Program-made: the position numbers and the translations under genes
The notes under the pieces: model-generated
What the model was told of the DNA's origin: nothing
The model's input: the letters and a program-made list of their open reading frames with translations, nothing else
Database searches by the model: none
Part shown: positions 3,801 to 45,132 of the stretch, piece after piece
Layout: each line of letters starts with the position of its first letter
Numbering within the stretch: the first letter of the stretch is position 1
Source of the DNA: a virus
Strand: one strand, 5' to 3'
Virus record (IMG/VR): IMGVR_UViG_3300045988_095842
DNA length: 64,000 bases

Positions 3801-4190
3801 CTATTCATCCTTTACCTGTTCCATCTCTACAGCATCTTCAACGGTAGTAATGATGGTCTCAGACAGCTTTACATCAACTGTGCCGCTTTTCGAAACCTTC
3901 AGAATCGCTTTTGCCCCGTTCTGAAGGGTGATCCTGAGCCCGGTAATCATTTCCCTTGCCGCAAAAGGAACAGCTTCGGTCATAATCGCTGCAGCCTGTG
4001 GAAATCCCGGCTGAATCAATTTGCCAACTGCCGTTCGGGCTTTGCTCTCTTCGTACAGGGCATTCCGTTCCCTCTGTGCCCCATCGCAGTCACACTCACT
4101 GGTCGCGATCCGGTCAAGGTCTTCCTGTGTCTTCCCCTCTGCGTACCGTACCATCCGTACCTGCCCGCAGTACTTACATGTTCCCGTCAT
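3801..4190 (-). CDS. hypothetical protein with N-terminal CxxC / CDCD cluster
   Basis: 129 aa ORF. Confidence 0.6.
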   Translation of the reverse strand: MTGTCKYCGQVRMVRYAEGKTQEDLDRIATSECDCDGAQRERNALYEESKARTAVGKLIQPGFPQAAAIMTEAVPFAAREMITGLRITLQNGAKAILKVSKSGTVDVKLSETIITTVEDAVEMEQVKDE

Positions 4191-4624: not shown

Positions 4625-4893
4625 TTCTCCTCCTCATGAAGCTTTCCAATTTTCTCGTACATGATCTTAAAAACAATTGCACTGTCTTCTATGAGTTTCT
4701 CTACCGGGATTCCGGTTGAAACAGCAACGTTCACTACAGCAAACAACGAAATCGTAAGCAAGTTACCGGCATCTCCTACAGTAACCAGGTTGCTAGGCGT
4801 TCCTGAAATGAATGGAATGTTTTTTTCCTTGGCAATTTCTGCTATCCTTTCAATAAGACGCCAAATTTCTTCTTCAACGCTCTGCTTTTTCAT
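4621..4893 (-). CDS. hypothetical protein
   Basis: 90 aa ORF with overlapping start/stop codons with its neighbours. Confidence 0.6.
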   Translation of the reverse strand: MKKQSVEEEIWRLIERIAEIAKEKNIPFISGTPSNLVTVGDAGNLLTISLFAVVNVAVSTGIPVEKLIEDSAIVFKIMYEKIGKLHEEEK

Positions 4894-5114
4894 ATCCGGT
4901 CTCCTTCCTTCAACCTGATTCCAACACTTGAAAAATATCCGATTTCTTTTAACTCCTGCTGAATCTTTAAAAGTGTTTTTACGGTGTAGTTTCTCTTTGA
5001 AACGCTCACCATTACAACGCCTTTTTCAGCGAATGCGTTCTCTCCTTTATCTTTTAAAAATTCAACCGCTTTATCTGCTCCTACTTTCATCTTTTCCTCC
5101 AGGTTTCCGCCCAC
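4890..5114 (-). CDS. hypothetical protein
   Basis: 74 aa ORF in the operon array. Confidence 0.55.
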   Translation of the reverse strand: MGGNLEEKMKVGADKAVEFLKDKGENAFAEKGVVMVSVSKRNYTVKTLLKIQQELKEIGYFSSVGIRLKEGDRI

Positions 5115-5138
5115 ACAATGCAGACGGAGACCATTTGT

Positions 5139-5786
5139 TTAAATCACAATTTCCAGCCGGCCATCTTTTGCCGTATAGATGTGATTACTGAGAATATCCT
5201 CCTCATCCATCACCTCTCTATTTCCATTGATTTCACACAATGCGTCAGAGAGGTATTCTACATCTATGCTGTTAGGAACAATGATCACCTCATGTGTTGA
5301 TGATGGAATCACGTAATATCCACCCTTGAACTGCTTGATTTCACGGATTCTATGATCAATTTCCTTATCCAGAAGAAGCGCAGGCGTATCGATATCCTCC
5401 GAATACAGGACGTATGCGCCAATCGTTTCTGTCGAAGAATCAGATATTCCAAACACTTTTAGAACCATTTCATCAAGTGGGACAATCTCAAAATTTTTGG
5501 CTTTCATATTCCAGAAGGCAATAGCCCGTAAAAGCATTTTTGCAGTGAAGTCAAACTGCTCAAAGTCAAACTGCTCAAAAAGCATTTCCACGAGTGCTTC
5601 TGTCACGGGAGCCTTTCCGCAATCCAGATCTGTGAGATCCAGCATGTAAACCAGTTCCAGATCTGCTACCTTTGTAGACACCTCAGCATTAGTCCCCTCT
5701 GGCTTTAAAACGGCGATTACCCGTGACAGCAGATCATTTTTCGATAATTCAAACGACTTTTTCTCCACTTTGAACGTCTTGTCCAT
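5139..5786 (-). CDS. DUF5688-like protein
   Basis: The C-terminal YYVIPSSTHEVIIVP motif resembles a family I recall from Firmicutes mobile elements. Confidence 0.5.
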   Translation of the reverse strand: MDKTFKVEKKSFELSKNDLLSRVIAVLKPEGTNAEVSTKVADLELVYMLDLTDLDCGKAPVTEALVEMLFEQFDFEQFDFTAKMLLRAIAFWNMKAKNFEIVPLDEMVLKVFGISDSSTETIGAYVLYSEDIDTPALLLDKEIDHRIREIKQFKGGYYVIPSSTHEVIIVPNSIDVEYLSDALCEINGNREVMDEEDILSNHIYTAKDGRLEIVI

Positions 5787-5862
5787 TTTGATTCCTCCAT
5801 AAAAGTTAATATATTTACAACTACTATCACCGTAGTGATCATTTCCGGTATTAAAAATACGC

Positions 5863-6213
5863 CTACGTAGTTTCTGACGGATGTAGAATCAGCTCTTTCC
5901 GGTTTTCCGCGTTGTGCAGCTCATACGAACCTTCGTATTCCTCTGCAACAAAAACGCCAGTCGGTTTTTTATGCCTCATCAAATAATCGATATACTCTTT
6001 GCTCACCTTAATAGATAAGGTGTCTTCAAATATGATGCGATATCCAAGAGCCTCCATGATCTTTGACACTTTTTCAAATTTCATGTCAGATCCTTTTTTG
6101 TGTCCCAGGAGTCTTGTGTAATTTTGCCTTGACTCTCCCATGATCCGAGAAAGCTGATAAACGGACATTCCTCGCGTTTTGAGTGCAGACCTTACCAAAT
6201 CCTCACCAGTCAT
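5863..6213 (-). CDS. helix-turn-helix DNA-binding protein
   Basis: The N-terminal MSVYQLSRIMGESRQNYTRLL segment is HTH-like. Confidence 0.6.
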   Translation of the reverse strand: MTGEDLVRSALKTRGMSVYQLSRIMGESRQNYTRLLGHKKGSDMKFEKVSKIMEALGYRIIFEDTLSIKVSKEYIDYLMRHKKPTGVFVAEEYEGSYELHNAENRKELILHPSETT

Positions 6214-6225
6214 CTTCCACCTCCT

Positions 6226-7230
6226 TTACGCCAATCTCAGGCCGTCTGACGGGTCATTTCTGAACACAAACCCATGTACAAACCTGGAATAATAACCTCC
6301 AATGTCTTTCATCTTCTGCTTTTTGTTTAAATACTCATCTCTGGACAGCTTTTCCGTGAACTTGACAACATAGATGGTCTCTCCGGTCTTTGTATGCTTT
6401 GTCTTCTCGACCGTATAACCCGTATCCTCGATCTCAACAGAGGCATCCTTTGTTTCAGCCTCCGCAACCTCATTCTTCTGCTGAGGAATTCTTGCTTTCT
6501 TCTCTACAACCTTAAATTTTCTGTGATCAACAGAGACACCGAAATAGTAGAAATTATTATCGGAGTAATCGATCATCCCGTCAGAATCATCGTAGTTGTA
6601 GGATTCAACAATACTGTCAATGTCATCAAACATCGCCTGCACATCCTCTCTCAGGATCACGTAAAGCTTTCCGTTTGCATAAGCATCGGCAATTTCCCGG
6701 TTTGTGGGATCCGACGGATCATTAGGCATTCTTGAATTAATATTCGTAAAGCTCCACTTTACTCCGTATCTCGCGATGTATCTCCAAAGATCATGAAGAT
6801 CATCATCACTCAGCTCACTCGCCTTCTTTTCAACTTCGAACGGTGCCTGTGTCAAGCTGATCGTAAGCTCCCGGCACATGGACGCATAATGCGTCCGAAT
6901 TGAAAAGCGGAAGGTCGGATACTTTTCCTTTACATACTCACGGATGATTGCAGCGATCTCTTTAAGAGACAAAGAGGAATCATAATTGCTTCCTTCCCAA
7001 CCGTTCTGCGTATAGAAATGCCTGCGTGTACTGCTTGCCGTCTCGGAAACCTTATCTCCAGTTTTCTTTTCCTGACGATCCTTCCAGATAGGGAACAATG
7101 CGTCATACTCAACATTGATCTCTTTCATTGTTTCCGGATCTCCTCCGACATCAGGATGATTGGCCATTGCAAGAGCCCTGAACTGGGCTTTAAGATCTGC
7201 AAAAGACTTGATGTTTCTGAAGTACTTCAT
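6226..7230 (-). CDS. J-domain (DnaJ-like) protein
   Basis: Contains the HPD motif in LKAQFRALAMANHPDVGGDPETMKEINVEYDALF. An AAGGAGG RBS precedes the ATG at 7230. Confidence 0.75.
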   Translation of the reverse strand: MKYFRNIKSFADLKAQFRALAMANHPDVGGDPETMKEINVEYDALFPIWKDRQEKKTGDKVSETASSTRRHFYTQNGWEGSNYDSSLSLKEIAAIIREYVKEKYPTFRFSIRTHYASMCRELTISLTQAPFEVEKKASELSDDDLHDLWRYIARYGVKWSFTNINSRMPNDPSDPTNREIADAYANGKLYVILREDVQAMFDDIDSIVESYNYDDSDGMIDYSDNNFYYFGVSVDHRKFKVVEKKARIPQQKNEVAEAETKDASVEIEDTGYTVEKTKHTKTGETIYVVKFTEKLSRDEYLNKKQKMKDIGGYYSRFVHGFVFRNDPSDGLRLA

Positions 7231-34399: not shown

Positions 34400-34909
34400 T
34401 TAGTTTTCTCCGGATGCCTTTGCCGCAGCCGCTGCCGCTTCTGCGTTGTACAGAAGGACAGGAGCAATGCCATCCTCGGAAACACCAATAAATCTTCCTG
34501 CAATGGCGATATTGCCCGATTCTGCGTTCGTGAGCAGTCCTGCCTTATCTCCCGTTGCAATGACGTAGGGCTTGTCGTTGACGGCAATGGTTACAGTATC
34601 ATCTACTCTCGCCCATACCTTGCCGGTACGAAGAACAGAGAATGCCTCGCCCTTGTCAATCACAACGGCGCCCTTGTTGTCCATCTCGTGAGCCTTGCTT
34701 ACTACAATGCCCTCGATGAAGTCGGATGCCGCCGCTGGAACCTTCACACCGGTTCCAGCAGAAGTGCCGGCCGCAACTGCCATGCCGAACTTGATCTTTC
34801 CAGACTCAGCCTCAGAGACCCTGGTGTTGCACTCATAAGGGCTGATATCAAAAAGGCCGCCCGGAACTCCGGACGGCGTAGCGTAACCATATTTCATCTG
34901 TGCTGCCAT
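34400..34909 (-). CDS. capsid decoration/cement protein (DUF2190-like)
   Basis: 169 aa, located between the scaffold/protease and capsid genes. Confidence 0.5.
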   Translation of the reverse strand: MAAQMKYGYATPSGVPGGLFDISPYECNTRVSEAESGKIKFGMAVAAGTSAGTGVKVPAAASDFIEGIVVSKAHEMDNKGAVVIDKGEAFSVLRTGKVWARVDDTVTIAVNDKPYVIATGDKAGLLTNAESGNIAIAGRFIGVSEDGIAPVLLYNAEAAAAAAKASGEN

Positions 34910-36186
34910 TACTGATTACCTCCTTCTCTTGCAATCATTCTTTCTCTCGCTGCCTGTGCAGCAGTAAGTCCAATGGGGCGAGAATCTGCTGAATCGTGAT
35001 TCAGCTTTCCAGCCATCTGCATGCGCTGGTAGTTCACGTCCTTCTTTCCAGGAACCGAGTTTTCAACTGCATACTGGAATGCATAGTTGATATATCCCTT
35101 GGACTTTCCATCAAGACGAACGTTCGGATTAACCTTTTTGATAACTCTCTTCTTGATCTCAAGGTTTGAAAGATTATCAACATCGTCCAGATTCAGACGA
35201 TCCGCAATTCTGAGGATAGATACTCTCTCTCGGATTCTCTTATCTACAGAGTCCGCATTCATTGCCTCCTTGTCATCGGTGTCGTCATCTCCATCCTTGT
35301 TTTCCTTGGAAAGATCATTCTTTGCCTGGATCTCATCAATGGAATCCAGAAGTGTCTGAATATCCTTATCCTGCTCGTCAAGCTTCTTGGTTGCCTCTTC
35401 CAGAGTCTTCGGATCTTCATCCGCATCTTTCCTGTCTCTGCGATCTCTGACCATCTTGATCTTGTCTTCCGGAGTCTCAGGATTATCTCCATCCTTGTTT
35501 TCCTTCTGATCATCAAGGCCAGTCTGATCATCTCCGTCCTGCTCCTGCAGCCCCTTGATACCCTTTGCATACTCATCAGGGCTGATCGGCTCACCATCTT
35601 TTCGGGTGTGTCTCATTGCATGTCCTCCTTTTGCTAATGTGTTTGCGTCTCTATCTTTACCGTCGATGTTCAGACGGGCACTGTCTCCCGCCCTCGCTTC
35701 GGCGACTAAAGCCAAGTGATTGATGCGGATATTTCTCTGTATCGCATCGTAGTGTTCTCCCTGGTATTCTCCGGGCGTATTATCAATGTCGAGGTTGTAT
35801 CCAAGTGACAGTTCTTTCAGGCCGCTTTCCTTCATGCTGTCGACATCATGGATAACAATCTTTGCCCTCACTGACTCACCATCCTGATATCCAGGTTCCA
35901 GGATGGTTCCGATTTCCTCGTCCGTTACATTTTCCGTATTCACATATCCGGCATCGTGCGTCACAATCACAGGTTTTCCTGCATAGGAAGCCAGGGAATC
36001 CGGATTAAATACCTCATCCGGCGGTCTGAACTCTCTTCTGACGGATCCATCTGGATTGTGATACTCAAATATGCCAATCCTGGTCACGATCGGATGATCA
36101 ATCAGATATCCCTCTTTCGTGAAATAGGTCAGATCATTGGCATCCAACCGGATCACGTCCGTTCGGCGTAAATTCTTGATTTTCAT
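34909..36186 (-). CDS. prohead protease/scaffold protein (DUF2213-like) with an acidic coiled C-terminal half
   Basis: Contains LSLGYNLDIDNTPGEYQGEHYDAIQRNIRINHLALVAEARAG. A GGAGGAAAG RBS precedes the ATG at 36186. Confidence 0.6.
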   Translation of the reverse strand: MKIKNLRRTDVIRLDANDLTYFTKEGYLIDHPIVTRIGIFEYHNPDGSVRREFRPPDEVFNPDSLASYAGKPVIVTHDAGYVNTENVTDEEIGTILEPGYQDGESVRAKIVIHDVDSMKESGLKELSLGYNLDIDNTPGEYQGEHYDAIQRNIRINHLALVAEARAGDSARLNIDGKDRDANTLAKGGHAMRHTRKDGEPISPDEYAKGIKGLQEQDGDDQTGLDDQKENKDGDNPETPEDKIKMVRDRRDRKDADEDPKTLEEATKKLDEQDKDIQTLLDSIDEIQAKNDLSKENKDGDDDTDDKEAMNADSVDKRIRERVSILRIADRLNLDDVDNLSNLEIKKRVIKKVNPNVRLDGKSKGYINYAFQYAVENSVPGKKDVNYQRMQMAGKLNHDSADSRPIGLTAAQAARERMIAREGGNQ

Positions 36187-36210
36187 CTTTCCTCCATCAA
36201 AAATTGCAAC

Positions 36211-36252
36211 AAAAAAAGAGCCTGAACACATTTCTGTGTCTAAGCTCTTTTT
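36211..36252. terminator. hairpin terminator between the effector island and the scaffold gene
   Basis: Hairpin AGAGCCTGAACACA-TTTC-TGTGTCTAAGCTCT, flanked by A7 and T5. Confidence 0.45.
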
Positions 36253-36383
36253 CGAATGCCCTATGTACTCGTGGTACATGGGCGATAGCAGAAAACGCCA
36301 CTGACCACAAAGATCAGTGACGTTCCAGAACATCAACCTGCAACCTGGCAGGCGATTACCATATTAATTATCTCGGAATCTCG

Positions 36384-36698
36384 TTATTCGTCATCTTCGT
36401 CATCTTCATCTTCCATAGCTTCTCTTGCCGGCCAATTCGGATGCTCCTTCTCCAGCTTCTCCAGTTCTTCATCTGATGCTCGGAATTTCGCCCAGAAAGG
36501 ATTCTCATCGTCAAAAATCCATTTCTGTTCAGGAGATAATTTTTCCGGATAATCCGGCCAGTAATTAAAAATGGTCTTTTTGTCAAAGCTGAACAACATC
36601 GGGCCTAATTCCCGGTTAATATTTCCATCTTCGTCAATTTCAAATTCGTCTACCCACCAAACTTTATCTCCGTCGTGCTCTTTATAAAAATCTAACAT
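36384..36698 (-). CDS. small acidic protein (candidate immunity/neutraliser)
   Basis: 104 aa ending EDEDDEDDE, directly downstream of the 513-aa toxin-like ORF. Confidence 0.55.
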   Translation of the reverse strand: MLDFYKEHDGDKVWWVDEFEIDEDGNINRELGPMLFSFDKKTIFNYWPDYPEKLSPEQKWIFDDENPFWAKFRASDEELEKLEKEHPNWPAREAMEDEDDEDDE

Positions 36699-36758
36699 CT
36701 TCGTTCCCTCATCTCCCCTTGTCGCAGTACCAAAATGACAGATCTTTTTAGAGAATAA

Positions 36759-38300
36759 CTAAGCAATATGACCTTCTCCACTCTTCCTTTCTTGCCCTTC
36801 GGCAGTATTCAAGTATCCAAGCAATTTCCGAAACTCATCGCTTTTCCCTAAAGACTCAATATCTACCATTCTTACAGTTTCTTTGTGGTCCATCACTTTA
36901 TTTATTCTTTTGCTTTCACATTTGAAGCGCTCTCCTAATGTTTTCTTGATTGTGCCAAACTCTTTCATGGAATGCCATCCATTTTTATAAACTTTATGTT
37001 TATAAGTACCAGGTGACTGTAGCTCCAAATACATAGGCACTCCATTTTCTTTCTTAACGATCGCCGCATGTCTTCCTGCTGCTAATACATATTGCTTGCC
37101 TTCCTGCATTTTACCGAGCAATCGAATTGTTGCATCTTTTTCATTCCAATCCGACTCTTCTTGATACCCTTTTCCAAGTTTAAGGATAGCTTTGTTGTTA
37201 TCCACCATTGCAAAAATATATCTGGATGTTCCACCTCTGAAATCTCGAACTTCAAATCCTGCTTTATTTCCAACATAGGCAAATGCTGTAGATGCGCAAC
37301 TTCCTCCAGTTTTATCTCCTCCAGATATAAAATCTATGATTCCTTTCTCAGATATTGCGGACTCTCGCTTTTTTACCGGCCTGTTTTCAACCCCGTTCTC
37401 TTCCAGGTAGTGTCTAGCTATATTTTTCTGTTCCCAACCTTTACTCTCAGCATAACTGTTTGCAATCCCAAACGCCGCAGAATGATCGTTTCCGTGTGCC
37501 AGTTGTCCATCTTCATTTTTATATGCCCAATATCCATTTTCAAGTTTGACATAAGCATGTCCTTTATCGTCTGTATAGATTGAACCAACGGGTAGACCGC
37601 CTATATTCTGGCTTGCACTTGCATGAACATCATCAACATCTTTGCTTGAAGAAAACGCAGAATTCAGCTTTTCATTCTGATTGAGACCACTGTATTTACT
37701 TTCTGTAAAATCACTCTCGTGTCCGTTCTCGATTCGCGTCTGAACATCCTTGTTTGTGAACATGGACCCATTTTCAATACTCACCCATGTATCATCGTCC
37801 AATTTGATGAGATTCATCGGCTTGGCGCCACCACTCCATGCTACTGTATCGCCTTTTTCTGCCTTTTCGACATCCTCCGGAGTAATTTTCCCGCTTTTCA
37901 GCGATTTTGTAAATGCAGATACCTTCGCTTCCTGCTTCTTTTCAGGCTCTTCCTTCTTTGCCGGTTCACTTCCGCCTACAACCGTCTTGTTCTTGTCTCT
38001 CTGTTTGTTCTCTTTATATGCACCAACAAGGCCTGTGTATCCACCAGTTGGAGTTGTAAGACGATAGGCAGCACCTCCGCCCGCTCCAGAACCTCCTTTG
38101 ATCCCAGGTCTCCCAGAATACCCCCAGTTGCCGGATCCAGGGCCTCCGTCCAGACGTTCCATGTACCACTTCTGTGCAGCCACAAGATCAGATGAATCCC
38201 CTTTGAATTCATTTTCTGCATATACTGCATTCAGATCCAACGGCCATCCGTTCCGGTCATACCATTGTTTCTGCGCATCGACTAAATTCATTTCCATCAT
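36759..38300 (-). CDS. MuF-associated effector-like protein: GSGNWGYSGRPG linker motif plus a C-terminal Cys/His (papain-like?) domain
   Basis: 513 aa. The start overlaps the MuF stop (ATGA). The C-terminus contains GGSCASTAFAYVGN ... AAGRHAAIV ... YLELQS. Confidence 0.65.
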   Translation of the reverse strand: MMEMNLVDAQKQWYDRNGWPLDLNAVYAENEFKGDSSDLVAAQKWYMERLDGGPGSGNWGYSGRPGIKGGSGAGGGAAYRLTTPTGGYTGLVGAYKENKQRDKNKTVVGGSEPAKKEEPEKKQEAKVSAFTKSLKSGKITPEDVEKAEKGDTVAWSGGAKPMNLIKLDDDTWVSIENGSMFTNKDVQTRIENGHESDFTESKYSGLNQNEKLNSAFSSSKDVDDVHASASQNIGGLPVGSIYTDDKGHAYVKLENGYWAYKNEDGQLAHGNDHSAAFGIANSYAESKGWEQKNIARHYLEENGVENRPVKKRESAISEKGIIDFISGGDKTGGSCASTAFAYVGNKAGFEVRDFRGGTSRYIFAMVDNNKAILKLGKGYQEESDWNEKDATIRLLGKMQEGKQYVLAAGRHAAIVKKENGVPMYLELQSPGTYKHKVYKNGWHSMKEFGTIKKTLGERFKCESKRINKVMDHKETVRMVDIESLGKSDEFRKLLGYLNTAEGQERKSGEGHIA

Positions 38301-39241
38301 TTGCTCCTATCATCGTCCTCAAGCGGAAGATTAAGCGTGTCTTTATCAAAAACAGGGATTCCCACACATCTGCAATTAAAGTCTTCCCCAGGATTGCATC
38401 GTCTTCCGGTATTTACCCAATACCCTCCGTGCTTACTCTGCCTCCACTCCATAATCTCCGGAGGATTGTTGTATTCAAAAATCTTTCCGTCTAAGATCGA
38501 GTGCCCAGGTCGAACTCTCTCATCATCAGATGTGCTCCACTTATATCTTGAAACGCCGGCATCCTCATGTTCTTTTCTTGTTATGTTCGCGCTCAGCTTT
38601 GCCATCTGATCCCTTGCTATGAATTTGGCGTGCCGCTTGCTCATACTGTAGTTCTGCTGAATTAAAGAACCGATATCCGATGCTGAAAGTCCTTTGCTGT
38701 ATCCGTATTCAATGGTTTCCTTCATCTTTCCCAGCATGTCGTTCGGCACAGTTTTTATCAGATCGACATTATCGGAAACCCATTGTCTAAGTTCTTCCTC
38801 AAAGAAATCTCCGTTGTAATAGTCCTTTGAGAGATCCACGTTCAGGGTTTTCCTGACCATCCTTCTCCACTCTGAGATTTCTGTTTTCTTGGTGATCGCA
38901 CCAATTTTAAAAAGCTGAGTCAACAGGCGTTGTGTGGCGCCCATCGTGCTCAGCTTCTCATTGATTCTGTCAAAAAAATCCGTAATAAAGGCATGCAGAT
39001 CAAAAATGCCATCCATCCGGATCTCGTCATTTAACTGTCTCCGGTATTCCTCTTTCAGTCCAGGCATTTCTTTTTCAATCACAAGCTTCACGGCCTTCAT
39101 GTACTGATTGACTGCTCTGATATATTCTCTTTCAGCCGATTCCGGAAACCTGTGAGTGCTTTTTCCTACGATGCTTGAATTTGTGCCAAATTTGGCCTCC
39201 AGTTGACTTTTAACGCTTTCAGAGTAGAAATACTTCTGCAT
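38297..39241 (-). CDS. head morphogenesis protein, MuF / SPP1 gp7 family
   Basis: Contains ERVRPGHSILDGKIF...CNPGEDFNCRCVGIPV. Confidence 0.8.
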   Translation of the reverse strand: MQKYFYSESVKSQLEAKFGTNSSIVGKSTHRFPESAEREYIRAVNQYMKAVKLVIEKEMPGLKEEYRRQLNDEIRMDGIFDLHAFITDFFDRINEKLSTMGATQRLLTQLFKIGAITKKTEISEWRRMVRKTLNVDLSKDYYNGDFFEEELRQWVSDNVDLIKTVPNDMLGKMKETIEYGYSKGLSASDIGSLIQQNYSMSKRHAKFIARDQMAKLSANITRKEHEDAGVSRYKWSTSDDERVRPGHSILDGKIFEYNNPPEIMEWRQSKHGGYWVNTGRRCNPGEDFNCRCVGIPVFDKDTLNLPLEDDDRSK

Positions 39242-39332
39242 CAGCATACCCCCTCTAAATGAGCCAATTTGGAACAAAATAAAGGAGCCTTCATATCAAG
39301 GCTCCTGGACTCTATCTTTCAATAGCTGTTTT

Positions 39333-39770
39333 TTACTTGTTTTTGCAGCGGAGAAGTCTTGCTTCTACTCTTTTATACTTCTCCACTCGTGCCAGATCCT
39401 TATCTGTCGGATTCTGGATTCTGGAAAGATCCATGTTGTTATGAAGATCAGCCAGCTTCACATCGATTGCCAAAGGATTTGTGCAAACACGATCAATGTA
39501 GGAATCGTAGCTCTCACCTTTCCTGTGAGTCAGGCAATCAAGTGCATCCGCAATAGTGTTCCCGAACTCATTTCTGATGTCGTCATTGGTTACATTCGTA
39601 TCCTCAACCGTGTCGTGTAACAACGCAAGGATTTTTTCCTTTTCGTCCGTCACTTGCTTTGCGACCGCAATGGGATGCAGAATATAAGGACTTCCACCCT
39701 TGTCGTACTGTCCATCATGTGCTCTAACTGCCAACTGAAGTGCTTCATACTCTTTGTCGCCCATGGACAC
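39333..39770 (-). CDS. HD-domain small alarmone hydrolase (RelA/SpoT hydrolase-like, SAH)
   Basis: Contains AHDGQYDKGGSPYILHPIAVA ... LLHDTVEDTNVT ... FG..IADALDCLT. Confidence 0.75.
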   Translation of the reverse strand: MSMGDKEYEALQLAVRAHDGQYDKGGSPYILHPIAVAKQVTDEKEKILALLHDTVEDTNVTNDDIRNEFGNTIADALDCLTHRKGESYDSYIDRVCTNPLAIDVKLADLHNNMDLSRIQNPTDKDLARVEKYKRVEARLLRCKNK

Positions 39771-39782
39771 CTCCCTAGAAGA

Positions 39783-40019
39783 TTAAGAATTTGACGCCCG
39801 CTTCTCATCCAGCTCTTTCATGATTTTCTTGGCTTCACTCTCAGAAATATCCTGTGATGTGCACCACCCATTCATAACATCCTCTGCAAACCGGCTTTTT
39901 TGCCATTTCCCATTTCTACAATAAACTTCGCACACATCTACAAAGTCAAATTCCGGATCAATAGATGCTCTGTACAGATCAAACCCACAATCATCACATG
40001 TCTTGTAAATGTATTTCAT
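39783..40019 (-). CDS. small Cys-containing protein between the RSH and SAH genes
   Basis: 78 aa from MKYIYKTCDDCGF. A GGAGGTG RBS lies upstream. Confidence 0.5.
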   Translation of the reverse strand: MKYIYKTCDDCGFDLYRASIDPEFDFVDVCEVYCRNGKWQKSRFAEDVMNGWCTSQDISESEAKKIMKELDEKRASNS

Positions 40020-40078
40020 GCCATCACCTCCCTGCAGCACTATAATATCGCGCCATTTCTAACATGTCAGCTTATTTG

Positions 40079-40702
40079 TTACTTCTTCCATGTCTTTACA
40101 GAAGAAATATCTTTTGGCATATCAAGTGTTGCGGAGATATCCTTCATTTCCAATTTGAGTGCATTCTTCAGCCGTCCGCTACTTTCTCTTGACACATCAT
40201 ACATAGGATGGATCGTCTCCTTTACCTTCATCGACTGTTTGGAATGAATCTGAAGCTCAATCTGCTGTCCGGAAGGCGATACAGCACCAATGTGAACTCC
40301 TTTGTAATCTGAGCTCGGATTATTGTACTTATTATCAACCTCATTGACGGTGTATCCTTTCTTTTTAAGCTGATCCACCGTGCTTTTCGTTGCAGCCGCG
40401 ATATTGTTATGATCTGTGAGCTGTGTGTATCTGACCAGATCACCCATGCTCTTTACTATCTGTTCATCAGATTCATTCGCATGTTCAGGATCAGCTTTCT
40501 TTCTCGCAATCTTGCTTGCTATAGATTTTCCTGTCTTCACAGAAAAGTCAAGTCCATACATCTCTGAGCCGCTCTGTCCTGCAATTTCAATCATGTCCTT
40601 TGAAATCTGCGGTTCCTTTGCTCTGATTGCATCATATGCCGCCTGTGCTTCTTTGGATGCTCCAGGAATTGTATGATCCTTGGCTGCTGCGGTTGCTGTC
40701 AC
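40079..40702 (-). CDS. RelA/SpoT-homolog (RSH) synthetase-domain protein, toxSAS-like
   Basis: Contains FSVKTGKSIASKIARK ... GDLVRYT ... DYKGVHIGAV..GQQIELQIHS, which are the nucleotidyltransferase motifs of small alarmone synthetases. GTG start overlapping the Nudix stop. Confidence 0.65.
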   Translation of the reverse strand: MTATAAAKDHTIPGASKEAQAAYDAIRAKEPQISKDMIEIAGQSGSEMYGLDFSVKTGKSIASKIARKKADPEHANESDEQIVKSMGDLVRYTQLTDHNNIAAATKSTVDQLKKKGYTVNEVDNKYNNPSSDYKGVHIGAVSPSGQQIELQIHSKQSMKVKETIHPMYDVSRESSGRLKNALKLEMKDISATLDMPKDISSVKTWKK

Positions 40703-41199
40703 CGGCTGTTTTCCTTCTGCAACTGCTTTAGAAGCCTTGTCCCAGGTCTCCCAGAATGCCCCCAGTTACCGGAACCGGCTCCTCCATCCGCTCTTCCTTT
40801 GATGCAATCTTCCAGAAGGGAAATCGAATCATCAAATGCCGGATACAGAAGACCACCTCTCTGCTCCAGATCAGAAATATCGTTGAATCCGAAATACTCA
40901 TCCACCATTTCAGTTCCGTCTGCCTTTGGCTCTCCCTCAAAATCTGTGCAGAGAAAGACCATGGTAGGAAGATATTCTCCCTCAGGACTCTTCAAACATC
41001 CGATCATCTTCAGATCTTTTGGAGTAACACCAAATTCCTCTCTGGTCTCTCTGATCGCTGCATCCATTGGATCCTCATCTTTTTCAACATGTCCACCAGG
41101 ACCGCAGATCTCTCCGGTATCTGAACGAAGTCCGCACAGAAACTTCCCGTCTTTAACCACTAAAACTCCAACTCCATACGGAATATCGTTTTTGTTCAT
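40699..41199 (-). CDS. Nudix hydrolase with a C-terminal GSGNWGHSGRPG motif
   Basis: Perfect Nudix box G-HVEKD-E-DPMDAAI-RETREEFGV. Confidence 0.8.
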   Translation of the reverse strand: MNKNDIPYGVGVLVVKDGKFLCGLRSDTGEICGPGGHVEKDEDPMDAAIRETREEFGVTPKDLKMIGCLKSPEGEYLPTMVFLCTDFEGEPKADGTEMVDEYFGFNDISDLEQRGGLLYPAFDDSISLLEDCIKGRADGGAGSGNWGHSGRPGTRLLKQLQKENSR

Positions 41200-41272
41200 G
41201 CTCTGCCCTTTCTTTTTTGCATCAAAAAAGGACTCAGGCTTTCGCCCAAGTCCTCTCAAAATCTAAATATCT

Positions 41273-41509
41273 TTATACTCCCATCAATTCGGAGTACTTC
41301 ATATCTGCAATGCTTTCTGCAATTTTGCATTTCTCAGAAATATCATCGATAGCATTTCCGGATTCGTCCACCAGCTCATCAGCAGAAATCATGAAGCTTT
41401 CCTCACGAATATGGAACCAATCCACCTTACTGACATCCTTCAGGTCTTCTTTTGTCTTGTGAAAATTGTCCCATATAAACTTTAACTGCTTTTCCGACAG
41501 GTCTTTCAT
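41273..41509 (-). CDS. small acidic protein downstream of the portal (candidate immunity/antitoxin)
   Basis: 78 aa. The start overlaps the portal stop. Confidence 0.5.
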   Translation of the reverse strand: MKDLSEKQLKFIWDNFHKTKEDLKDVSKVDWFHIREESFMISADELVDESGNAIDDISEKCKIAESIADMKYSELMGV

Positions 41510-43356
41510 TACTCATCCTCCGCCCATAAGTCAATCGTAGTCACGATATTTCCTGCATTGCTTAGAACAATGCGGTTTTTGCCTTTCTGGAAGCATGTAA
41601 CATCTTTATGCTTACTATTTCCTGGATACATGGAATCCGGATTTTCGAGTGAATCTTTCAGATCTTCCGGTGTTATATTCCTTGATTTCATCCGGTAGCC
41701 GGCATGTGCACTTACTTCCTTCACCGTAACGCCATTCTGTGCTACCGTTCCCTTTACTGCTTTTGTGAACTCCCTTGCCGCTTTGTAATCTTTTTGTGAT
41801 GACTGTCCGTTATGAGGGCCAGCAGCGTTCTGATTTCCATATGGCGCCCCGTCCACATTCATCATACCATCTTGCTGTAAATTGTCAGCGCTTTCCTGCG
41901 CATTTTCTTCACCCTGCAGATCACTGATCTTGTTCAGCTCAGCCTGTTGCTTGCGAAGATCAAAGGCTTCATCCGGAATTTCGAGATTATCATTTTCAAC
42001 AATCCCCTGGATCTGATACTCGTTGGAATCAGCAAGACCCTTACGGACTTCGGACGGATCCAACGCCTGCATATCCACATAAATCTGTGCCGTAGAAGCC
42101 TTTGTCTGCTCTGTTCCAGCTTTAATGCTGTCCACATTCGCCTGTTCTTCCTCGGAAAGCTGTTTCAGCGGTTTGAATTTCACCTCATAATCAGGAATAT
42201 CTACCTTCTTTTTGGCCTCTATCTCTTTTAAAACAGCCCTGATGACCTTTTCGGCTGCACCATGGTACGAATTCGCCTGAATTCTGTTCAATAACTGGAA
42301 ATAATTATCTCTGTCATTGTCGCCGGTTGAATCTTCTCCAGCCGGATCCTTTCCAAAGAGAATTGTCTGAGGAATGTCCGTGACAGCGGAAAGCATATTG
42401 CAAGTACGGTCGATCAGGTCGGATGCTCCGGACATCGATGCATTGATATACTGGTAATCCTCTCCATCATTATCAATCGCCATGGAATTGATGATATTCC
42501 GTGCCATATCGATTACCTGTAATCTCTGGATTACCTTGTCTTCTCCTTCCTCAGTTGCGAGAAGCTGAGAAAGGTTTTTCATCTTATATACGCCGAGAAC
42601 AGAACGCTCCAATAGTTTTGTGCCGTCATGATGTGACGTAACGGTCTCTCTAAGGGCCTCTCTGATCTTCATATAGACAGGAATACCCCAATGCTTGTAA
42701 ATCACGCTGTTGGCGCTCTCAGGCACTCTTCCGTTGCGGAATACAAGACACCTTGAGTAGTGAACGCGGAAAGATCCATACTGCGAATACACGTCATAAA
42801 ACTCAGGATCTCCAAATTTCCGTTCTCTGTCTTCGCGGTCGATATCATGAAAGTAGCTAAAGTCCAATGTATCTGCCTGAACAATCGGTCTTTCGAACGT
42901 AATCAACTCTTCGATGCTTTTTACATTTTTCCAATTCAAAGGCTCATCAAGGCCTCTTCCATCATCCACAAGCATGACCACCAGAGCCCCGCCGTAAAGT
43001 CTGCTCCACTTTTCCGCAGTAGCCAGTGTATCCGTAAAATCCAGCTTACTAAGCTTCTTCAGAACTTCTTTTTCAAGCTCATCACCCAGGTCAGAAAGAT
43101 CCAGGCCTTTTGCGATAGCATCCTCTGCCGGCCGATCAATGATTTTTGCGAACAGACCATTTCCGATATACAGTGACGATAGCTTCGCATCCGAAGAAAT
43201 TGCATCTGCACTATATTCCCATGCGGTAGAATTATCCTTCATGGTTCCGACTTTGGTCAGCATGTTCATGTATCCGTCACTGCGATACTCGCTGACAGCC
43301 TGATTATATCGGCTGATTTCCTCTATCCGCTGAAGCGGATTGATTTGTACGCCCAT
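41509..43356 (-). CDS. portal protein (DUF1073-like) with a C-terminal DUF4258-like toxin-type extension
   Basis: The N-terminus YMNMLTKVGTMKDNS...LYIGNGLFAKIIDRPAEDA is portal-like. The last ~110 aa contain SAHAGYRMKSRNITPEDLKDSL...NRIVLSNAGNIVTTI. Confidence 0.7.
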   Translation of the reverse strand: MGVQINPLQRIEEISRYNQAVSEYRSDGYMNMLTKVGTMKDNSTAWEYSADAISSDAKLSSLYIGNGLFAKIIDRPAEDAIAKGLDLSDLGDELEKEVLKKLSKLDFTDTLATAEKWSRLYGGALVVMLVDDGRGLDEPLNWKNVKSIEELITFERPIVQADTLDFSYFHDIDREDRERKFGDPEFYDVYSQYGSFRVHYSRCLVFRNGRVPESANSVIYKHWGIPVYMKIREALRETVTSHHDGTKLLERSVLGVYKMKNLSQLLATEEGEDKVIQRLQVIDMARNIINSMAIDNDGEDYQYINASMSGASDLIDRTCNMLSAVTDIPQTILFGKDPAGEDSTGDNDRDNYFQLLNRIQANSYHGAAEKVIRAVLKEIEAKKKVDIPDYEVKFKPLKQLSEEEQANVDSIKAGTEQTKASTAQIYVDMQALDPSEVRKGLADSNEYQIQGIVENDNLEIPDEAFDLRKQQAELNKISDLQGEENAQESADNLQQDGMMNVDGAPYGNQNAAGPHNGQSSQKDYKAAREFTKAVKGTVAQNGVTVKEVSAHAGYRMKSRNITPEDLKDSLENPDSMYPGNSKHKDVTCFQKGKNRIVLSNAGNIVTTIDLWAEDE

Positions 43357-43706
43357 TACAGATAACTCCTTCCATATCTTTTCATAAATGCTTCTCTGGC
43401 CGGATCTGAGTCTCCGTGTTCGCCTGATCTATCTTTGTAATACTGCTTTTCCCAGGCGAGTTGCCCGATCATCTTTGACATTGCCTCAGCCATGCTGTTT
43501 CCGTGAATGATCAGTGTGCCGTTCTTTTTATTTCCATTCTTTGGAATATAACCCATGTTGTGACAGGCATTTGTCACAGGGATCACCAGACCATCCTCAT
43601 CTGCTTTCTCGCGATTGATTCCAAAAATTAAATGATGTACTGCCTCAGAAGGACGGCCCGTAAAAGCACACACGTCCATATAATCTGTCACTATGCTCTT
43701 TTTCAT
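43356..43706 (-). CDS. conserved phage protein, possible His-Me/HNH-type nuclease
   Basis: Contains CAFTGRPSEAVHHLIFGINREKADEDGLVIPVTNACHN. It lies between terL and the portal. Confidence 0.4.
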   Translation of the reverse strand: MKKSIVTDYMDVCAFTGRPSEAVHHLIFGINREKADEDGLVIPVTNACHNMGYIPKNGNKKNGTLIIHGNSMAEAMSKMIGQLAWEKQYYKDRSGEHGDSDPAREAFMKRYGRSYL

Positions 43707-43720: not shown

Positions 43721-45132
43721 CTATAGCATCGAATCTATGTTGAACATTCCATAGTTTGCCAGCTCATCAAATGCGGATGACGTAGCATCCACCATGTCCT
43801 TAAACTTTGAATCCGGAAAACTCTCAAGCTGTGAGAAGTAATCGTCATTCCATTCTCCCTGCACAACATCAAAGAACCCATGCTGCCATTGCGCAGCTAC
43901 AGGCGTTGCCCGGAACGTCTTATCTCCTGTCTCTGTCCGTGCAGAAACATCAAATCCGGCAAGTTCAGACACAAAAAAAGCCGCCTGACTCTTTCCGGCT
44001 TGTCCGGGGTCCTGCGGAATTCTGACTTTCACATATCCATATGATGCTCTATCCGAAATTGCTGTGTTTTTAATCAGCGATAATACTTCTCCTGCAGCAA
44101 GCCTCATGTTTATTACATCAAGGATTGCGTATCTGTTATTTTTCAACACCGCCATGAGAACGCCTGCTGTATATGCAGGATCTCCGTTCTCATCCTCTGA
44201 AGTAGCCGCCAGATCCCATCCACGACACATCGCAATAATGTCGTCCTTGCGGATCTGTTCCTTTTGAATCAGCTTGACCTGTCCCCTCTGGAACATTAAC
44301 CCTGCATGGTTCCGGATCTTCCAGTTTCCATTCAGAAGGCGTTCTCTCTCTACCATCGGAAGGTTGAGAAGGTTCGTCATATACTGAGGATTCGTCCTCA
44401 GCAGTTCTTTATTGTCCTGGACAGAAGAAGGTATGAATGTAACTGATTTTGCGACAAACGGAAGAAGATCCTCTGTCACTCCATCTTCCCTTGCATACAG
44501 GATTGCATCGTCTTTATTATCAAACCAGTGAATTACGCCCTTTAACCGGACCATCCACCGGATTACTCCAGCTCTTTCTTTAATCGGATATCCGGAATCC
44601 TGATCTATCCACCATGAAATAAATTTCGCCACCCAGGAATCAGAATCCGGATTGCATGTTGCCCTGATATACGGCTGAACACCACATATAGAACGGTTTC
44701 TGGACAGCATATAGAAGAACTGATACTCGCTGAAGTGACATAACTCATCAAACTCGATCAGACATATCTGAGATCCCTGCCATTGCTCACAATCTTCATT
44801 CCTGGACAGATGAGCGAATGTAATCGATGCTCCAGACTGAAATGACCAATGCATCTTCGGTGTCTTTCCGGAATGCGCTCCCTTAACAAAGGGATATATT
44901 TCTCTTGCAGAGTCCCAAAGACCTCCAGGAGCCGTAATCTGTGTATAGGCGTGACGCAGGATCAGCACATTGAATTTTGGATTATCAATATGCCTTAACG
45001 GTTCAAGAAGCTCTGCGAACGTCTTCCCGCCGGTCAGCCGCCCGCGGCGCCGCCATATACCACAATGTCTGCACTGGAAGACAAAAACGCTTCCTGCGGA
45101 CCTGGCTGCGGAGCAAATACCGTGGACATTTG
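43721..45132 (-). CDS. terL: terminase large subunit, interrupted by an apparent -1 frame change in the Walker A region
   Basis: Frame A (45132->45034): MSTVFAPQPGPQEAFLSSSADIVVYGGAAGG*. Frame B continues LTGGKTFAELLEPLRHIDNPKFNVLILRH... into ORF 43721..44968. Confidence 0.7.

What the first reader, a model, noticed from the sequence alone, without database searches (positions are those of the whole stretch)
38103..40773. Shared GSGNWG[HY]SGRPG motif encoded by a near-identical 33-nt DNA repeat in two unrelated effector genes; frame relationships suggest a broken Nudix-RSH fusion
The 33-nt segments 38103-38135 and 40741-40773 are 31/33 identical. They encode SGNWGYSGRPG in the 513-aa MuF-adjacent protein and SGNWGHSGRPG at the extreme C-terminus of the Nudix protein. 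The flanking protein sequences are otherwise unrelated. Nucleotide-level conservation of a Gly-rich linker suggests a recombination joint for swapping effector cassettes, a processing or capsid-targeting signal, or both (inference). Downstream of the motif, the 513-aa protein continues IKGGSGAGGG. In the Nudix gene the homologous DNA carries small indels. The reading frame that still resembles this linker (DKASKAVAEG...) is the frame of the RSH gene, which is open from inside the motif and reachable by a -1 shift at CCT GGG A. This looks like a decayed or recoded Nudix-linker-RSH polyprotein.
Basis: partly seen in the sequence, partly recalled or inferred. Interest (0 to 1): 0.62.

Follow-up and report, generated by a model that had tools for sequence, protein, structure and literature searches.

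The report
Conserved phage cargo-junction motif; deletion-split Nudix-alarmone synthetase gene
The two near-identical 33-base stretches encode a very widespread, almost invariant 20-residue peptide that sits in front of each effector module of proteins encoded beside phage portal and head-assembly genes, and in this phage a 178-base deletion starting inside one copy has split a Nudix-alarmone-synthetase fusion gene into two genes.

Summary
Segments 38103-38135 and 40741-40773 are 31/33 identical, with 0 matches expected by chance.

They encode two copies of the motif GGxGSGN[FWY]GHxGRPGx[VRI]GGS. The motif has no Pfam, NCBIfam or PDB match, and I found no paper that spells it out. A profile hits 6,278 protein clusters, with up to 10 copies per protein. 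It follows portal, MuF, prohead-protease or Nudix modules. It precedes ADP-ribosyltransferase, Zeta, RNase, alarmone-synthetase and other effector modules. AlphaFold predicts it disordered.

The "broken Nudix-RSH fusion" idea is right. Relatives that are 90-97% identical carry one 432-433 aa Nudix-motif-linker-RSH gene. The window lacks exactly 178 nt between two 9-nt direct repeats (GAGACCTGG), one of them inside the GRPG codons. This shifts the frame and leaves Nudix (166 aa, 13-residue junk tail) and an RSH core (207 aa, GTG overlapping the new TGA).

It is a single microhomology deletion, not small indels and not programmed frameshifting.

Cassette exchange at the motif is supported. A 90-94% identical Nudix is followed after the motif by RSH, Zeta or other modules. 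One relative places the 513-aa protein's effector plus its partner gene behind Nudix.

How the motif works is inferred, not shown. It is most likely a cleavable packaging junction.

The parts
40741..40788 (-). Motif copy A, a truncated remnant (DGGAGSGNWGHSGRPG) at the C-terminus of Nudix.
   Evidence: In relatives the motif continues MRGGSGGGGG.
40742..40750 (-). Deletion junction. This is the single retained copy of the 9-nt direct repeat GAGACCTGG. It reads G-R-P-G in the Nudix frame and E-T-W in the RSH frame.
   Evidence: Relatives L115 and L160 have two copies 178 nt apart. The window aligns to both flanks with a 9-nt overlap.
40699..40740 (-). Out-of-frame 13-residue tail (TRLLKQLQKENSR) and TGA stop, created by the deletion.
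40699..41199 (-). Nudix hydrolase ORF, 166 aa from the ATG (the ORF is open to TTG 41259). The Nudix box Gx5Ex7REUxEExGU is intact.
   Evidence: Pfam NUDIX 53.4 bits against a cut-off of 21.1. Gene call in L116. Foldseek matches to RppH/MutT.
40079..40702 (-). RSH / small-alarmone-synthetase core ORF, 207 aa. Its GTG overlaps the Nudix TGA (GTGA), with GAAGGA 9 nt upstream. It equals residues 226-432 of the intact fusion.
   Evidence: PDB 8vx3 (exported SAS): E 3e-10 by sequence and TM 0.81 normalised to the target by fold. Pfam RelA_SpoT is below the cut-off.
39783..40040 (-). Small ORF between RSH and the HD hydrolase, in the position of an IapK-type immunity gene.
   Evidence: Gene order compared with apk2-iapK-aph1 in PMC12226406. 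No family hit.
39333..39770 (-). HD_4 small alarmone hydrolase-like gene, in the Aph1 position.
   Evidence: Pfam HD_4 E 5.8e-10. phrog_990 E 4.7e-53.
38297..39277 (-). MuF (SPP1 gp7-type) minor head protein.
   Evidence: Pfam Phage_Mu_F E 1e-18
38088..38150 (-). Motif copy B, full length (DGGPGSGNWGYSGRPGIKGGS), residues 51-71 of the 513-aa protein.
38118..38120 (-). TAT (Tyr) codon at the motif position that is His in every other instance examined.
   Evidence: 0 Tyr among 164 IMG/VR instances although the search pattern allowed it. 28 of 28 homologues have His. L115 and L160 have CAT.
36759..38300 (-). 513-aa MuF-adjacent effector. It has a conserved ~130-aa N-terminal adaptor (leader, motif, GGSGAGGGxxYRL...) and a variable C-terminal module. 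That module is fused to MuF or Phage_min_cap2 in many other phages.
36384..36698 (-). DUF7675 small acidic ORF. It travels together with the 513-type C-terminal module.
   Evidence: Pfam. In L161 it follows the Nudix-motif-513-like gene.
34909..36336 (-). DUF2213 protein, a predicted prohead serine protease domain plus a scaffold-like tail. It is the candidate enzyme acting on the motif.
   Evidence: phrog_530 head maturation protease E 5.7e-84. Invariant His/Ser/His. BFVD fold matches to proteins annotated as prohead serine proteases. The PDB fold search was inconclusive.
41509..43356 (-). Portal protein (Phage_portal_3) with a C-terminal DUF4258-like extra module. This is a third effector slot of the same head module.
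   Evidence: The module is replaced by Ntox50 in relative L161.

Best explanation
SHOWN. The two 33-nt segments encode two copies of a ~20-residue short linear motif, GGxGSGN[FWY]GHxGRPGx[VRI]GGS. Across thousands of phage proteins this motif sits immediately upstream of each ~130-530-aa effector module. It sits downstream of a head-interior carrier (portal, MuF, prohead protease or DUF2213) or of a short 15-70-aa N-terminal leader. The window belongs to a gut temperate-phage lineage whose head-assembly module (terminase, portal, MuF, DUF2213, cement protein, major capsid protein) has three effector slots. These are the portal C-terminus, a Nudix-motif-X gene, and a MuF-adjacent leader-motif-Y gene. 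In close relatives slot 2 is one 432-433 aa gene with this order: Nudix, motif, Gly spacer, helical hairpin, small-alarmone-synthetase (RSH) core. It is followed by a small ORF and an HD hydrolase, the same order as the characterised apk2-iapK-aph1 toxin-immunity cassette. In the window a 178-nt deletion (3n+1) occurred between two 9-nt direct repeats, GAGACCTGG. One repeat lies in the GRPG codons of the motif and the other in K-E-T-W codons 59 residues downstream. The deletion removed the GGS half of the motif, the spacer and most of the hairpin, and it shifted the frame. The result is a 166-aa Nudix with a 13-residue junk tail. It also leaves a 207-aa RSH core that can only start at an internal GTG overlapping the new stop (GTGA) with a pre-existing GAAGGA upstream. 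This is decay by microhomology deletion, not recoding. INFERRED. (i) The motif is a cleavable packaging junction. Cargo enters the procapsid tethered to a carrier or leader and is freed at the motif, either by the DUF2213/S78-type prohead protease or autocatalytically, so that it can leave with the DNA. I give about 0.45-0.5 for 'cleavable junction' in either form. (ii) Because the peptide is invariant, its coding DNA also provides patches of homology at which effector-immunity cassettes are exchanged between slots and between phages. (iii) After the deletion the RSH core has lost its tether and is probably no longer packaged. Whether it is still made is unknown.
For: Repeat and frames. Intact fusions: P0001 (433 aa, 75% identity over 100% of the conceptual fusion), P0002 to P0006 and P0275 to P0284 (432 aa). 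Syntenic loci: L115 (90% identical) and L160 (97% identical, collinear over 13.3 kb with one gap). Deletion ends: GAGACCTGG at L115 669-677 and 847-855, and the 178 nt between them are missing in the window. Blast of L160 gives two HSPs overlapping by 9 nt at window 40742-40750. The split allele was assembled independently: 166-aa and 207-aa products on 2 ENA contigs, and the same 207-aa product on 2 JGI contigs of 64.3 kb. The RSH core is complete relative to a 207-aa solved SAS, 8vx3. The unconstrained flanks GG.GS and GGS are 96-100% conserved. 6,278 clusters at E<=1e-3 and 1,049 at E<=1e-10 among 1.84 billion representatives, with up to 10 copies per protein. Spacing between copies has a median of 220 aa. 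The first copy lies within 70 aa of the N-terminus in 60% of proteins, and the last copy is almost never near the C-terminus (3 of 125). Neighbouring domains: downstream ADP-ribosyltransferases, topoisomerase IB, Zeta, Ntox50, GNAT, PBECR3, Fic and others. Upstream portal 24 of 67, Nudix 9, MuF 4, DUF2213 4, S78 3. Neighbouring genes are DUF2213, MuF, TerL and Major_capside. The motif is disordered, with pLDDT<50 for residues 136-162 between two confident domains. Cassette exchange: the Nudix part is 90-94% identical while the part after the motif is RSH, an extra module plus RSH, or Zeta. The 513-type adaptor is followed by ATLF-like, Gln-deamidase, ADP-ribosyltransferase or the 513 C-terminal module. 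L161 has Nudix-motif-513-like module plus DUF7675 in slot 2 and leader-motif-ADP-ribosyltransferase in slot 3. Logic for cleavage: cargo fused to the portal C-terminus cannot reach the host unless it is released. In L002, L084 and L054 the motif lies exactly at the end of the DUF2213 protease domain. DUF2213 resembles proteins annotated as prohead serine proteases. Gene order matches apk2-iapK-aph1.
Against: No experiment or proteomic datum shows cleavage, packaging or any activity. The motif accompanies at least three protease families (DUF2213, S78, S78_2), yet it is nearly invariant, which is unusual for a protease site. Neither the capsid protein nor the scaffold part of the window's DUF2213 protein carries the motif, so it cannot be the general maturation site. 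The Foldseek search of PDB did not confirm a protease fold for DUF2213. In the 513-type family the conserved adaptor runs about 50-70 residues past the motif, so exchange does not always break exactly at the motif. Codon identity between motif copies within a contig is only modestly above the between-contig background (0.40 against 0.30), so selection acts on the peptide and not on the DNA.
Confidence: 0.75

Rival explanations
1. Programmed -1 ribosomal frameshifting at CCU GGG A makes a Nudix-RSH fusion from the two ORFs.
For: The RSH frame is the -1 frame of Nudix and is open from inside the motif. The fusion product would resemble the intact proteins except for a 59-residue gap.
Against: No X XXY YYZ heptamer exists in AGA CCU GGG ACA. 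All relatives encode the fusion in one frame. The junction is exactly what one microhomology deletion produces. No other motif instance shows an ORF pair of this kind.
Confidence: 0.03
2. The 178-nt gap is an assembly artefact and the real genome carries the intact fusion.
For: The source is a metagenome assembly. Reads could not be inspected.
Against: A 9-nt repeat cannot collapse a k=119/141 de Bruijn assembly. The same split products occur on 2 ENA contigs and 2 JGI contigs.
Confidence: 0.04
3. The motif is an uncleaved tether or hinge. It is a disordered tag that binds a conserved partner. The partner could be the portal or MuF. It could also be the packaged DNA, bound through an AT-hook-like GRP core and a kinase-G-loop-like GxGxFG. 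On this view modules travel as beads on a string through the tail.
For: The motif is disordered yet invariant. It contains GRP and GSGNFG. Giant proteins with up to 10 copies exist. It co-occurs with MuF and portal.
Against: Portal-fused cargo would stay in the capsid unless cut. The flanks are acidic or neutral rather than basic as in AT-hooks. There is no direct evidence.
Confidence: 0.22
4. The motif is self-cleaving. The invariant Asn and the His three residues later (N-[FWY]-G-H) act as in the N|PTH autocleavage of FlhB/EscU/YscU (established knowledge, recalled). The alternative junction motif KFNP[YF]H..GRF, found at the same place in homologous Nudix fusions, even spells NPxH.
For: Asn, His and Arg are invariant. 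The motif is independent of the protease family. NPxH-type and GNFGH-type motifs are positionally interchangeable after the same Nudix domain.
Against: NPTH autocleavage needs a folded turn, whereas AlphaFold sees disorder here. The third alternative motif, DHPRDENGQF, has no N-x-x-H. This is a resemblance recalled from memory, not a test.
Confidence: 0.13
5. The motif has no function of its own. It is a Gly-rich linker kept alike by recombination or gene conversion of its DNA.
For: The copies in this window are unusually alike in codons. Modules are exchanged at the motif.
Against: 15 of 20 residues are invariant across contigs that share only about 30% of synonymous codons. Non-Gly residues (N, aromatic, H, R, P, S) are fixed. 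Ordinary linkers drift.
Confidence: 0.07

Closest known systems
MuF polymorphic toxins of temperate phages, in particular Apk2-IapK-Aph1 (Jamet et al. 2017, PMC5576092; PMC12226406)
   Same: Toxin or effector domains, including RelA/SpoT-like domains, are encoded in the head-morphogenesis module next to portal and MuF. C-terminal modules are variable. The RSH gene is followed by a small ORF and an HD hydrolase, in the same order as apk2-iapK-aph1. Many homologues of the 513-aa protein's C-terminal module are fused to MuF.
   Different: Here the effectors are not fused to MuF. They sit behind a Nudix domain or a short leader, each preceded by the GNFGH-GRPG motif. Neither paper mentions this motif. 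Activity of this RSH, (p)ppApp or (p)ppGpp, was not tested.
Polyvalent proteins of phages and conjugative elements (Iyer, Burroughs, Anantharaman, Aravind 2017, PMC5512222)
   Same: They are multi-effector polypeptides with 2-15 domains (ART-PolyVal, RelA/SpoT, Nudix-linked, MuF- or portal-fused). They are predicted to be packaged and injected, and peptidase-mediated processing has been proposed. The largest motif-bearing proteins here carry ART-PolyVal, Zeta, Fic and ParB_N.
   Different: In that paper a search for 'linker' or 'glycine' found nothing. The regular motif-module periodicity (median 220 aa) and the interchangeable junction motifs (GNFGH-GRPG, DHPRDxxGxF, NPxHxxxGRF) are not described in the text I could search.
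Phage T4 capsid-targeting sequence of internal proteins and Alt (established knowledge, recalled)
   Same: A short N-terminal leader directs cargo into the prohead and is removed by the prohead protease. The cargo is injected with the DNA.
   Different: The T4 signal is about 10 residues with a loose L/I-x-E cleavage site and occurs once per protein. The present motif is 20 residues, nearly invariant, internally repeated, and spread over many phage lineages. Neither cleavage nor targeting is shown here.
FlhB/EscU/YscU NPTH autocleavage (established knowledge, recalled)
   Same: There is an Asn with a His three residues later. A sister junction motif reads NP[YF]H.
   Different: NPTH works inside a folded domain of a secretion-switch protein. 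There is no homology, and self-cleavage was not tested here.

Membership tests
MuF-associated polymorphic toxin / polyvalent protein systems | Effector genes embedded in the phage head-morphogenesis module next to portal and MuF | tested here: met
   The order TerL, portal, Nudix, RSH, HD, MuF, 513-aa, DUF7675, DUF2213, cement protein, capsid protein is seen in the window and in L160 and L161.
MuF-associated polymorphic toxin / polyvalent protein systems | A conserved N-terminal (trafficking) part with variable C-terminal toxin domains | tested here: met
   Nudix is 90-94% identical while the part after the motif is RSH, Zeta or an extra module. The 513-type adaptor is 63-81% identical while the C-terminus is ATLF-like, Gln deamidase, ADP-ribosyltransferase or the 513 C-terminal module.
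MuF-associated polymorphic toxin / polyvalent protein systems | A cognate immunity gene immediately downstream that travels with the toxin module | tested here: inconclusive
   Small ORFs follow each effector. DUF7675 moves together with the 513-type module into the Nudix slot in L161. Immunity function was not tested.
MuF-associated polymorphic toxin / polyvalent protein systems | Fusion of the toxin to the MuF domain itself | tested here: not met
   MuF (38297-39277) is a separate ORF. Fusions to MuF exist only in more distant homologues.
MuF-associated polymorphic toxin / polyvalent protein systems | Packaging into the capsid and delivery with the DNA | not testable with these tools
   Needs virion proteomics or infection assays.
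Programmed -1 ribosomal frameshift site | Slippery heptamer X XXY YYZ at the frame junction | tested here: not met
   AGA CCT GGG ACA contains none.
Programmed -1 ribosomal frameshift site | The two-frame arrangement is conserved in relatives | tested here: not met
   Relatives have one continuous frame.
RelA/SpoT homologue, small alarmone synthetase | Match to the RelA_SpoT synthetase domain | tested here: inconclusive
   Pfam gives 20.4 bits, below the cut-off of 27.
RelA/SpoT homologue, small alarmone synthetase | SAS fold | tested here: met
   The AlphaFold model of P0001 matches 8vx3 (exported SAS of Streptomyces albidoflavus) with TM 0.81 normalised to the target and E 5e-11. By sequence E is 3e-10 over residues 236-426.
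RelA/SpoT homologue, small alarmone synthetase | Pyrophosphokinase activity and product | not testable with these tools
   Needs an enzyme assay.
Nudix hydrolase | NUDIX domain and Nudix box Gx5Ex7REUxEExGU | tested here: met
   Pfam gives 53.4 bits against a cut-off of 21.1. The box GHVEKDEDPMDAAIRETREEFGV was read from the translation. The fold matches RppH/MutT.
Prohead serine protease (for DUF2213, the candidate processing enzyme) | HK97/assemblin-type protease fold with catalytic Ser and His | tested here: inconclusive
   phrog_530 'head maturation protease' E 5.7e-84. His, Ser and His are invariant in 26 sequences. BFVD predicted-structure matches to proteins annotated as prohead serine protease have E 1e-6 to 1e-16. 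No PDB match has E<=0.001, and the model pLDDT is 72.6.

The most novel reading that the evidence does not exclude
GGxGSGN[FWY]GHxGRPGxxGGS may be a portable, self-contained 'load-and-release' signal of tailed phages, together with its positionally interchangeable sisters DHPRDxxGxF and NPxHxxxGRF. On this reading any module placed behind it, tethered to portal, MuF, protease or a short leader, is taken into the procapsid. It is then cut free at the motif, by the DUF2213/S78 prohead protease or by Asn/His-mediated self-cleavage, for injection. That would make it the first sequence-defined, cross-lineage cargo-processing signal for phage-delivered effectors.
Probability: 0.35. Interest if true: 0.8.

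Novelty: new variant of a known kind. Interest (0 to 1): 0.6.

Why it matters
Phage-packaged effectors (MuF toxins, polyvalent proteins) are known. How they are recruited into capsids and separated into active units is not known outside T4. A 20-residue, nearly invariant, disordered motif precedes each module in more than 6,000 protein clusters. It has no Pfam, NCBIfam or PDB counterpart, and I found no paper that spells it out. This gives the question a concrete handle. Point mutants, tagged reporters and virion proteomics can test directly whether it is a cleavage or packaging signal. It also gives annotators a rule for cutting giant phage ORFs into modules and for spotting unknown effector domains; about 110 of 150 downstream modules had no Pfam hit. 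The window itself is a natural experiment. One copy is truncated by a deletion that untethers an alarmone-synthetase toxin core. The other copy carries Tyr at the otherwise universal His. Sister phages that are 97% identical carry both copies intact.

Tried and rejected
- Megablast of 36700-43400 against 50,697 GenBank phages gave no match.
- tblastn with a 32-aa motif peptide against the same collection gave no match. I suspect the low-complexity filter, so this says nothing about cultured phages.
- A profile of the motif against all PDB sequences gave 0 hits at E<=10.
- Pfam, PHROGs and NCBIfam returned no family for the motif region.
- Literature searches for the motif letters (GNFGH, GNWGH, GRPGxxGGS, HPRD, NPYH with MuF) returned nothing relevant.
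- 'linker' and 'glycine' are absent from Jamet 2017 and Iyer 2017. Zhang 2012 mentions only an unrelated Gly-rich linker.
- Earlier-findings look-ups by words and by sequence returned nothing.
- The portal's GAPYGNQNAAGPH was tested as a fourth junction motif. The IMG/VR scan gave 0 hits, so I dropped it.
- The look-up of P0273 found no record.
- I considered the 513-aa C-terminal Cys/His module as the general 'releasing peptidase' for the motif. I rejected it because it occurs in 0 of 114 viral and 1 of 43 genome loci that carry the motif.
- The Foldseek search of PDB with the DUF2213 model was not significant.

Full report
**1. The observation**

The two 33-nt segments exist as described. 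They are 38103-38135 and 40741-40773, 31/33 identical and in direct orientation.
- The likeness extends to 50 nt at 86% identity.
- No further copy exists in the window, and none appears in 100 dinucleotide shuffles.
- All genes here are on the minus strand. In order they are terminase, a 116-aa ORF, portal, a 78-aa ORF, Nudix, RSH, an 85-aa ORF, HD_4, MuF, a 513-aa ORF, DUF7675, DUF2213, a 169-aa ORF and the capsid protein.
- The repeat encodes DGGPGSGNWGYSGRPGIKGGSGAGGG at residues 51-76 of the 513-aa protein.
- It also encodes DGGAGSGNWGHSGRPG followed by TRLLKQLQKENSR-stop at the end of Nudix.
- The RSH ORF is in the -1 frame of Nudix. It is open back to a TAA inside the motif and starts at a GTG that overlaps the Nudix TGA, with GAAGGA 9 nt upstream.

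**2. The Nudix-RSH break**

I searched the conceptual fusion against 5.8 billion proteins.
- The best hit, P0001 (433 aa), covers 100% of the query at 75% identity.
- Its cluster of 87 members consists mostly of 432-439-aa proteins.
- These proteins read Nudix-...DGGAGSGNWGHSGRPG-MRGGSGGGGG-YKLTDEDKISKMVSAMSSDEKKLFSKANEDSKKAVKNLNDTYASNKETW-DKASKAVAEGKQPVTATAAAKDH...-RSH.

The DNA of two syntenic relatives settles the mechanism.
- L115 is 90% identical. L160 is 97% identical and collinear over 13.3 kb.
- The window lacks exactly 178 nt.
- In L115 the deleted stretch is bounded by a 9-nt direct repeat, GAGACCTGG. One copy reads G-R-P-G in G GAG ACC TGG and the other reads K-E-T-W in AAA GAG ACC TGG.
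- The window keeps one copy, at 40742-40750. The two L160 alignments overlap the window by these same 9 nt.
- 178 = 3n+1, so the frame shifts.

This single event explains three things. It explains why the RSH frame upstream of DKASK still reads ETW. It explains why Nudix ends in 13 unrelated residues. It also explains why the motif sits at a C-terminus, where it almost never occurs otherwise (3 of 125 proteins).

There is no slippery heptamer and relatives are in frame, so programmed frameshifting is very unlikely.

The split allele is not a one-off assembly error. Its products are on 2 ENA contigs, and the same 207-aa product is on 2 JGI contigs.

**3. What is left**

I predicted the structure of P0001 with AlphaFold (mean pLDDT 90.9).
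- It shows a Nudix domain at residues 1-133.
- Residues 136-162, which contain the motif, are disordered (pLDDT below 50).
- A helical hairpin follows at 168-220, then the synthetase core.
- The deletion removes residues 154-212. The window's GTG corresponds to V226.
- The core that remains aligns end to end with a 207-aa solved small alarmone synthetase, 8vx3. By sequence E is 3e-10, and the fold match has TM 0.81 normalised to the target. The catalytic domain is therefore intact but untethered.
- Nudix resembles RppH/MutT and keeps its Nudix box.
- The order RSH, small ORF, HD hydrolase mirrors the characterised apk2-iapK-aph1 cassette of MuF toxins.

**4. The motif is general**

- Positions the pattern did not constrain are nevertheless 96-100% conserved. 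This gives GG-x-GSGN[FWY]GH-x-GRPG-x-[VRI]-GGS.
- A profile of 60 instances found 6,278 clusters (at 50% identity) at E<=1e-3 among 1.84 billion representatives. Of these, 1,049 have E<=1e-10. Some proteins carry up to 10 copies.
- Copies are a median of 220 aa apart.
- In 60% of proteins the first copy lies within 70 residues of the N-terminus.
- In 185,579 species-representative genomes the motif occurs in only 43 stretches. Most are gut or rumen Clostridia MAGs, with a few environmental and archaeal bins. This may explain why no model phage or paper covers it.
- Nothing for the motif was found in Pfam, NCBIfam, PHROGs, PDB or the paper library.

**5. Neighbours of the motif**

| Position relative to the motif | Families found |
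|---|---|
| Downstream modules | ADP-ribosyltransferases (most frequent), topoisomerase IB, Zeta toxin, Ntox50, GNAT, PBECR3, Fic, Gln deamidase, CdiA_C, DUF4258. About 110 of 150 have no Pfam hit. |
| Upstream modules (67 scanned) | portal 24, Nudix 9, MuF 4, DUF2213 4, Peptidase_S78 3 |
| Neighbouring genes | DUF2213, MuF, terminase, Major_capside (PF09950) |

The neighbouring genes form the same head-module type as in the window.

DUF2213 is annotated as a head maturation protease in PHROGs. It has invariant His, Ser and His. Its model matches BFVD models annotated as prohead serine proteases, but the PDB fold search was not significant. In three loci the motif lies exactly at the end of the DUF2213 protease domain.

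**6. Cassette exchange**

- Proteins whose Nudix part is 90-94% identical continue after the motif with RSH, with an extra module plus a second motif plus RSH, or with an unrelated Zeta-toxin module.
- The MuF-adjacent 513-aa family has a conserved ~130-aa adaptor (leader, motif, GGSGAGGGxxYRL...). The C-termini that follow are variable: ATLF-like, Gln deamidase, ADP-ribosyltransferase, or the 513 C-terminal module. The last of these is fused to MuF or Phage_min_cap2 in many other phages.
- Relative L161 has the same backbone but a different arrangement. It carries Nudix-motif-[513-type module] plus DUF7675 in the Nudix slot, leader-motif-ADP-ribosyltransferase behind MuF, and Ntox50 instead of DUF4258 on the portal.

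The two window genes that share the repeat are thus demonstrably exchange partners.

Codon identity between motif copies is 0.40 within contigs and 0.30 between contigs. The window pair reaches 0.69, the top 4% of within-contig pairs. Selection is therefore mainly on the peptide, and the DNA homology is a by-product that recombination can use.

**7. Sister motifs**

Homologous Nudix domains are followed, at the same position, by one of three short motifs.

| Junction motif | Proteins |
|---|---|
| GNFGH-GRPG type | 23 |
| DFNEADHPRDENGQF | 41 |
| KFNP[YF]HDxxGRF | 14 |

The second type occurs mostly in portal-Nudix fusions. The third occurs mostly in S78_2-protease-Nudix fusions.

**8. Mechanism (inferred)**

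A disordered motif with 15 of 20 residues fixed is a recognition element, not a spacer. Cargo fused to the portal C-terminus must be released to act in the host. Stand-alone cargo carries a short leader before the motif, as T4 internal proteins carry a cleaved capsid-targeting sequence (recalled knowledge).

I therefore favour a cleavable packaging junction, at about 0.45-0.5. This splits between cutting by the prohead protease and Asn/His self-cleavage in the manner of FlhB NPTH. An uncleaved tether that binds portal, MuF or DNA is the main rival, at about 0.2. Nothing here shows cleavage.

**9. State of this phage**

Both motif copies are damaged. Copy A is truncated. Copy B has Tyr where all 164 IMG/VR instances and all 28 homologues have His, and L115 and L160 also have His there. 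This suggests relaxed selection on cargo handling in this lineage, but that is inference.

**10. Verdict**

The local event is ordinary decay. The motif itself is a widespread feature of a known kind of system that, as far as I could search, has not been described. I score interest at 0.6.

Noticed in passing
window 45034-45060 (minus strand), terminase large subunit: The Walker A coding region is split between two frames. Relative L161 reads GGC GGC GCA GCT GGT GGA GGC AAG ACG (YGGAAGGGKT). The window has GGCGGCGCCGCGGGCGGC-TGACCGGC-GGGAAGACG, an extra 8 nt that brings a TGA in frame. The same break is present in the 97% identical L160, so it is shared by the lineage and is not specific to this window.
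   Followed up: partly
window 38118-38120: There is a Tyr codon (TAT) at the motif position that is His in every other instance seen: 164 IMG/VR instances, 28 homologues, and relatives L115 and L160.
   Followed up: yes
window 41509-41840 and 41273-41509; L161 4092-6297: The portal carries a weak DUF4258-like C-terminal module (Pfam E 0.005, below the cut-off) followed by a 78-aa ORF. In relative L161 the portal ends in Ntox50 instead. This is a third exchangeable effector slot. The linker GAPYGNQNAAGPH gave no hits as a general motif in IMG/VR.
   Followed up: partly
P0032-P0119 (homologues of the Nudix domain): Two other short conserved junction motifs occupy the same position after Nudix. 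They are DFNEADHPRDENGQF (41 proteins, often portal fusions) and KFNP[YF]HDxxGRF (14 proteins, often Peptidase_S78_2 fusions).
   Followed up: partly
window 40079-40702; P0001 residues 224-431: The RSH module matches the last ~200 positions of the NCBIfam model for XopAD/skwp type III effectors (E 1.5e-20, far below that family's full-length cut-off). This suggests those large effectors end in a related synthetase-like domain.
   Followed up: no
window 34909-36336 (DUF2213): His, Ser and His are invariant in 26 DUF2213 domains. The BFVD fold matches are to proteins annotated as prohead serine proteases. The published Pa193 gp24 work treats the same family only as a putative scaffolding protein, and the word 'protease' does not occur in that paper's text (PMC11456595).
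   Followed up: partly
L043 (IMGVR_UViG_3300010353_000664) 630-7125; P0121, P0142: These are extreme cases. One 11-kb stretch has nine motif copies, and single proteins of 2,000-2,600 aa have 9-10 copies. Most of their modules have no Pfam match.
   Followed up: no
motif instances in IMG/VR and window 38070-38087: A secondary conserved element, GGG[KSA]x[YFN]R(L), lies 8-12 residues after GGS in many instances. The window has GGGAAYRL and P0001 has GGGGYKL.
   Followed up: no
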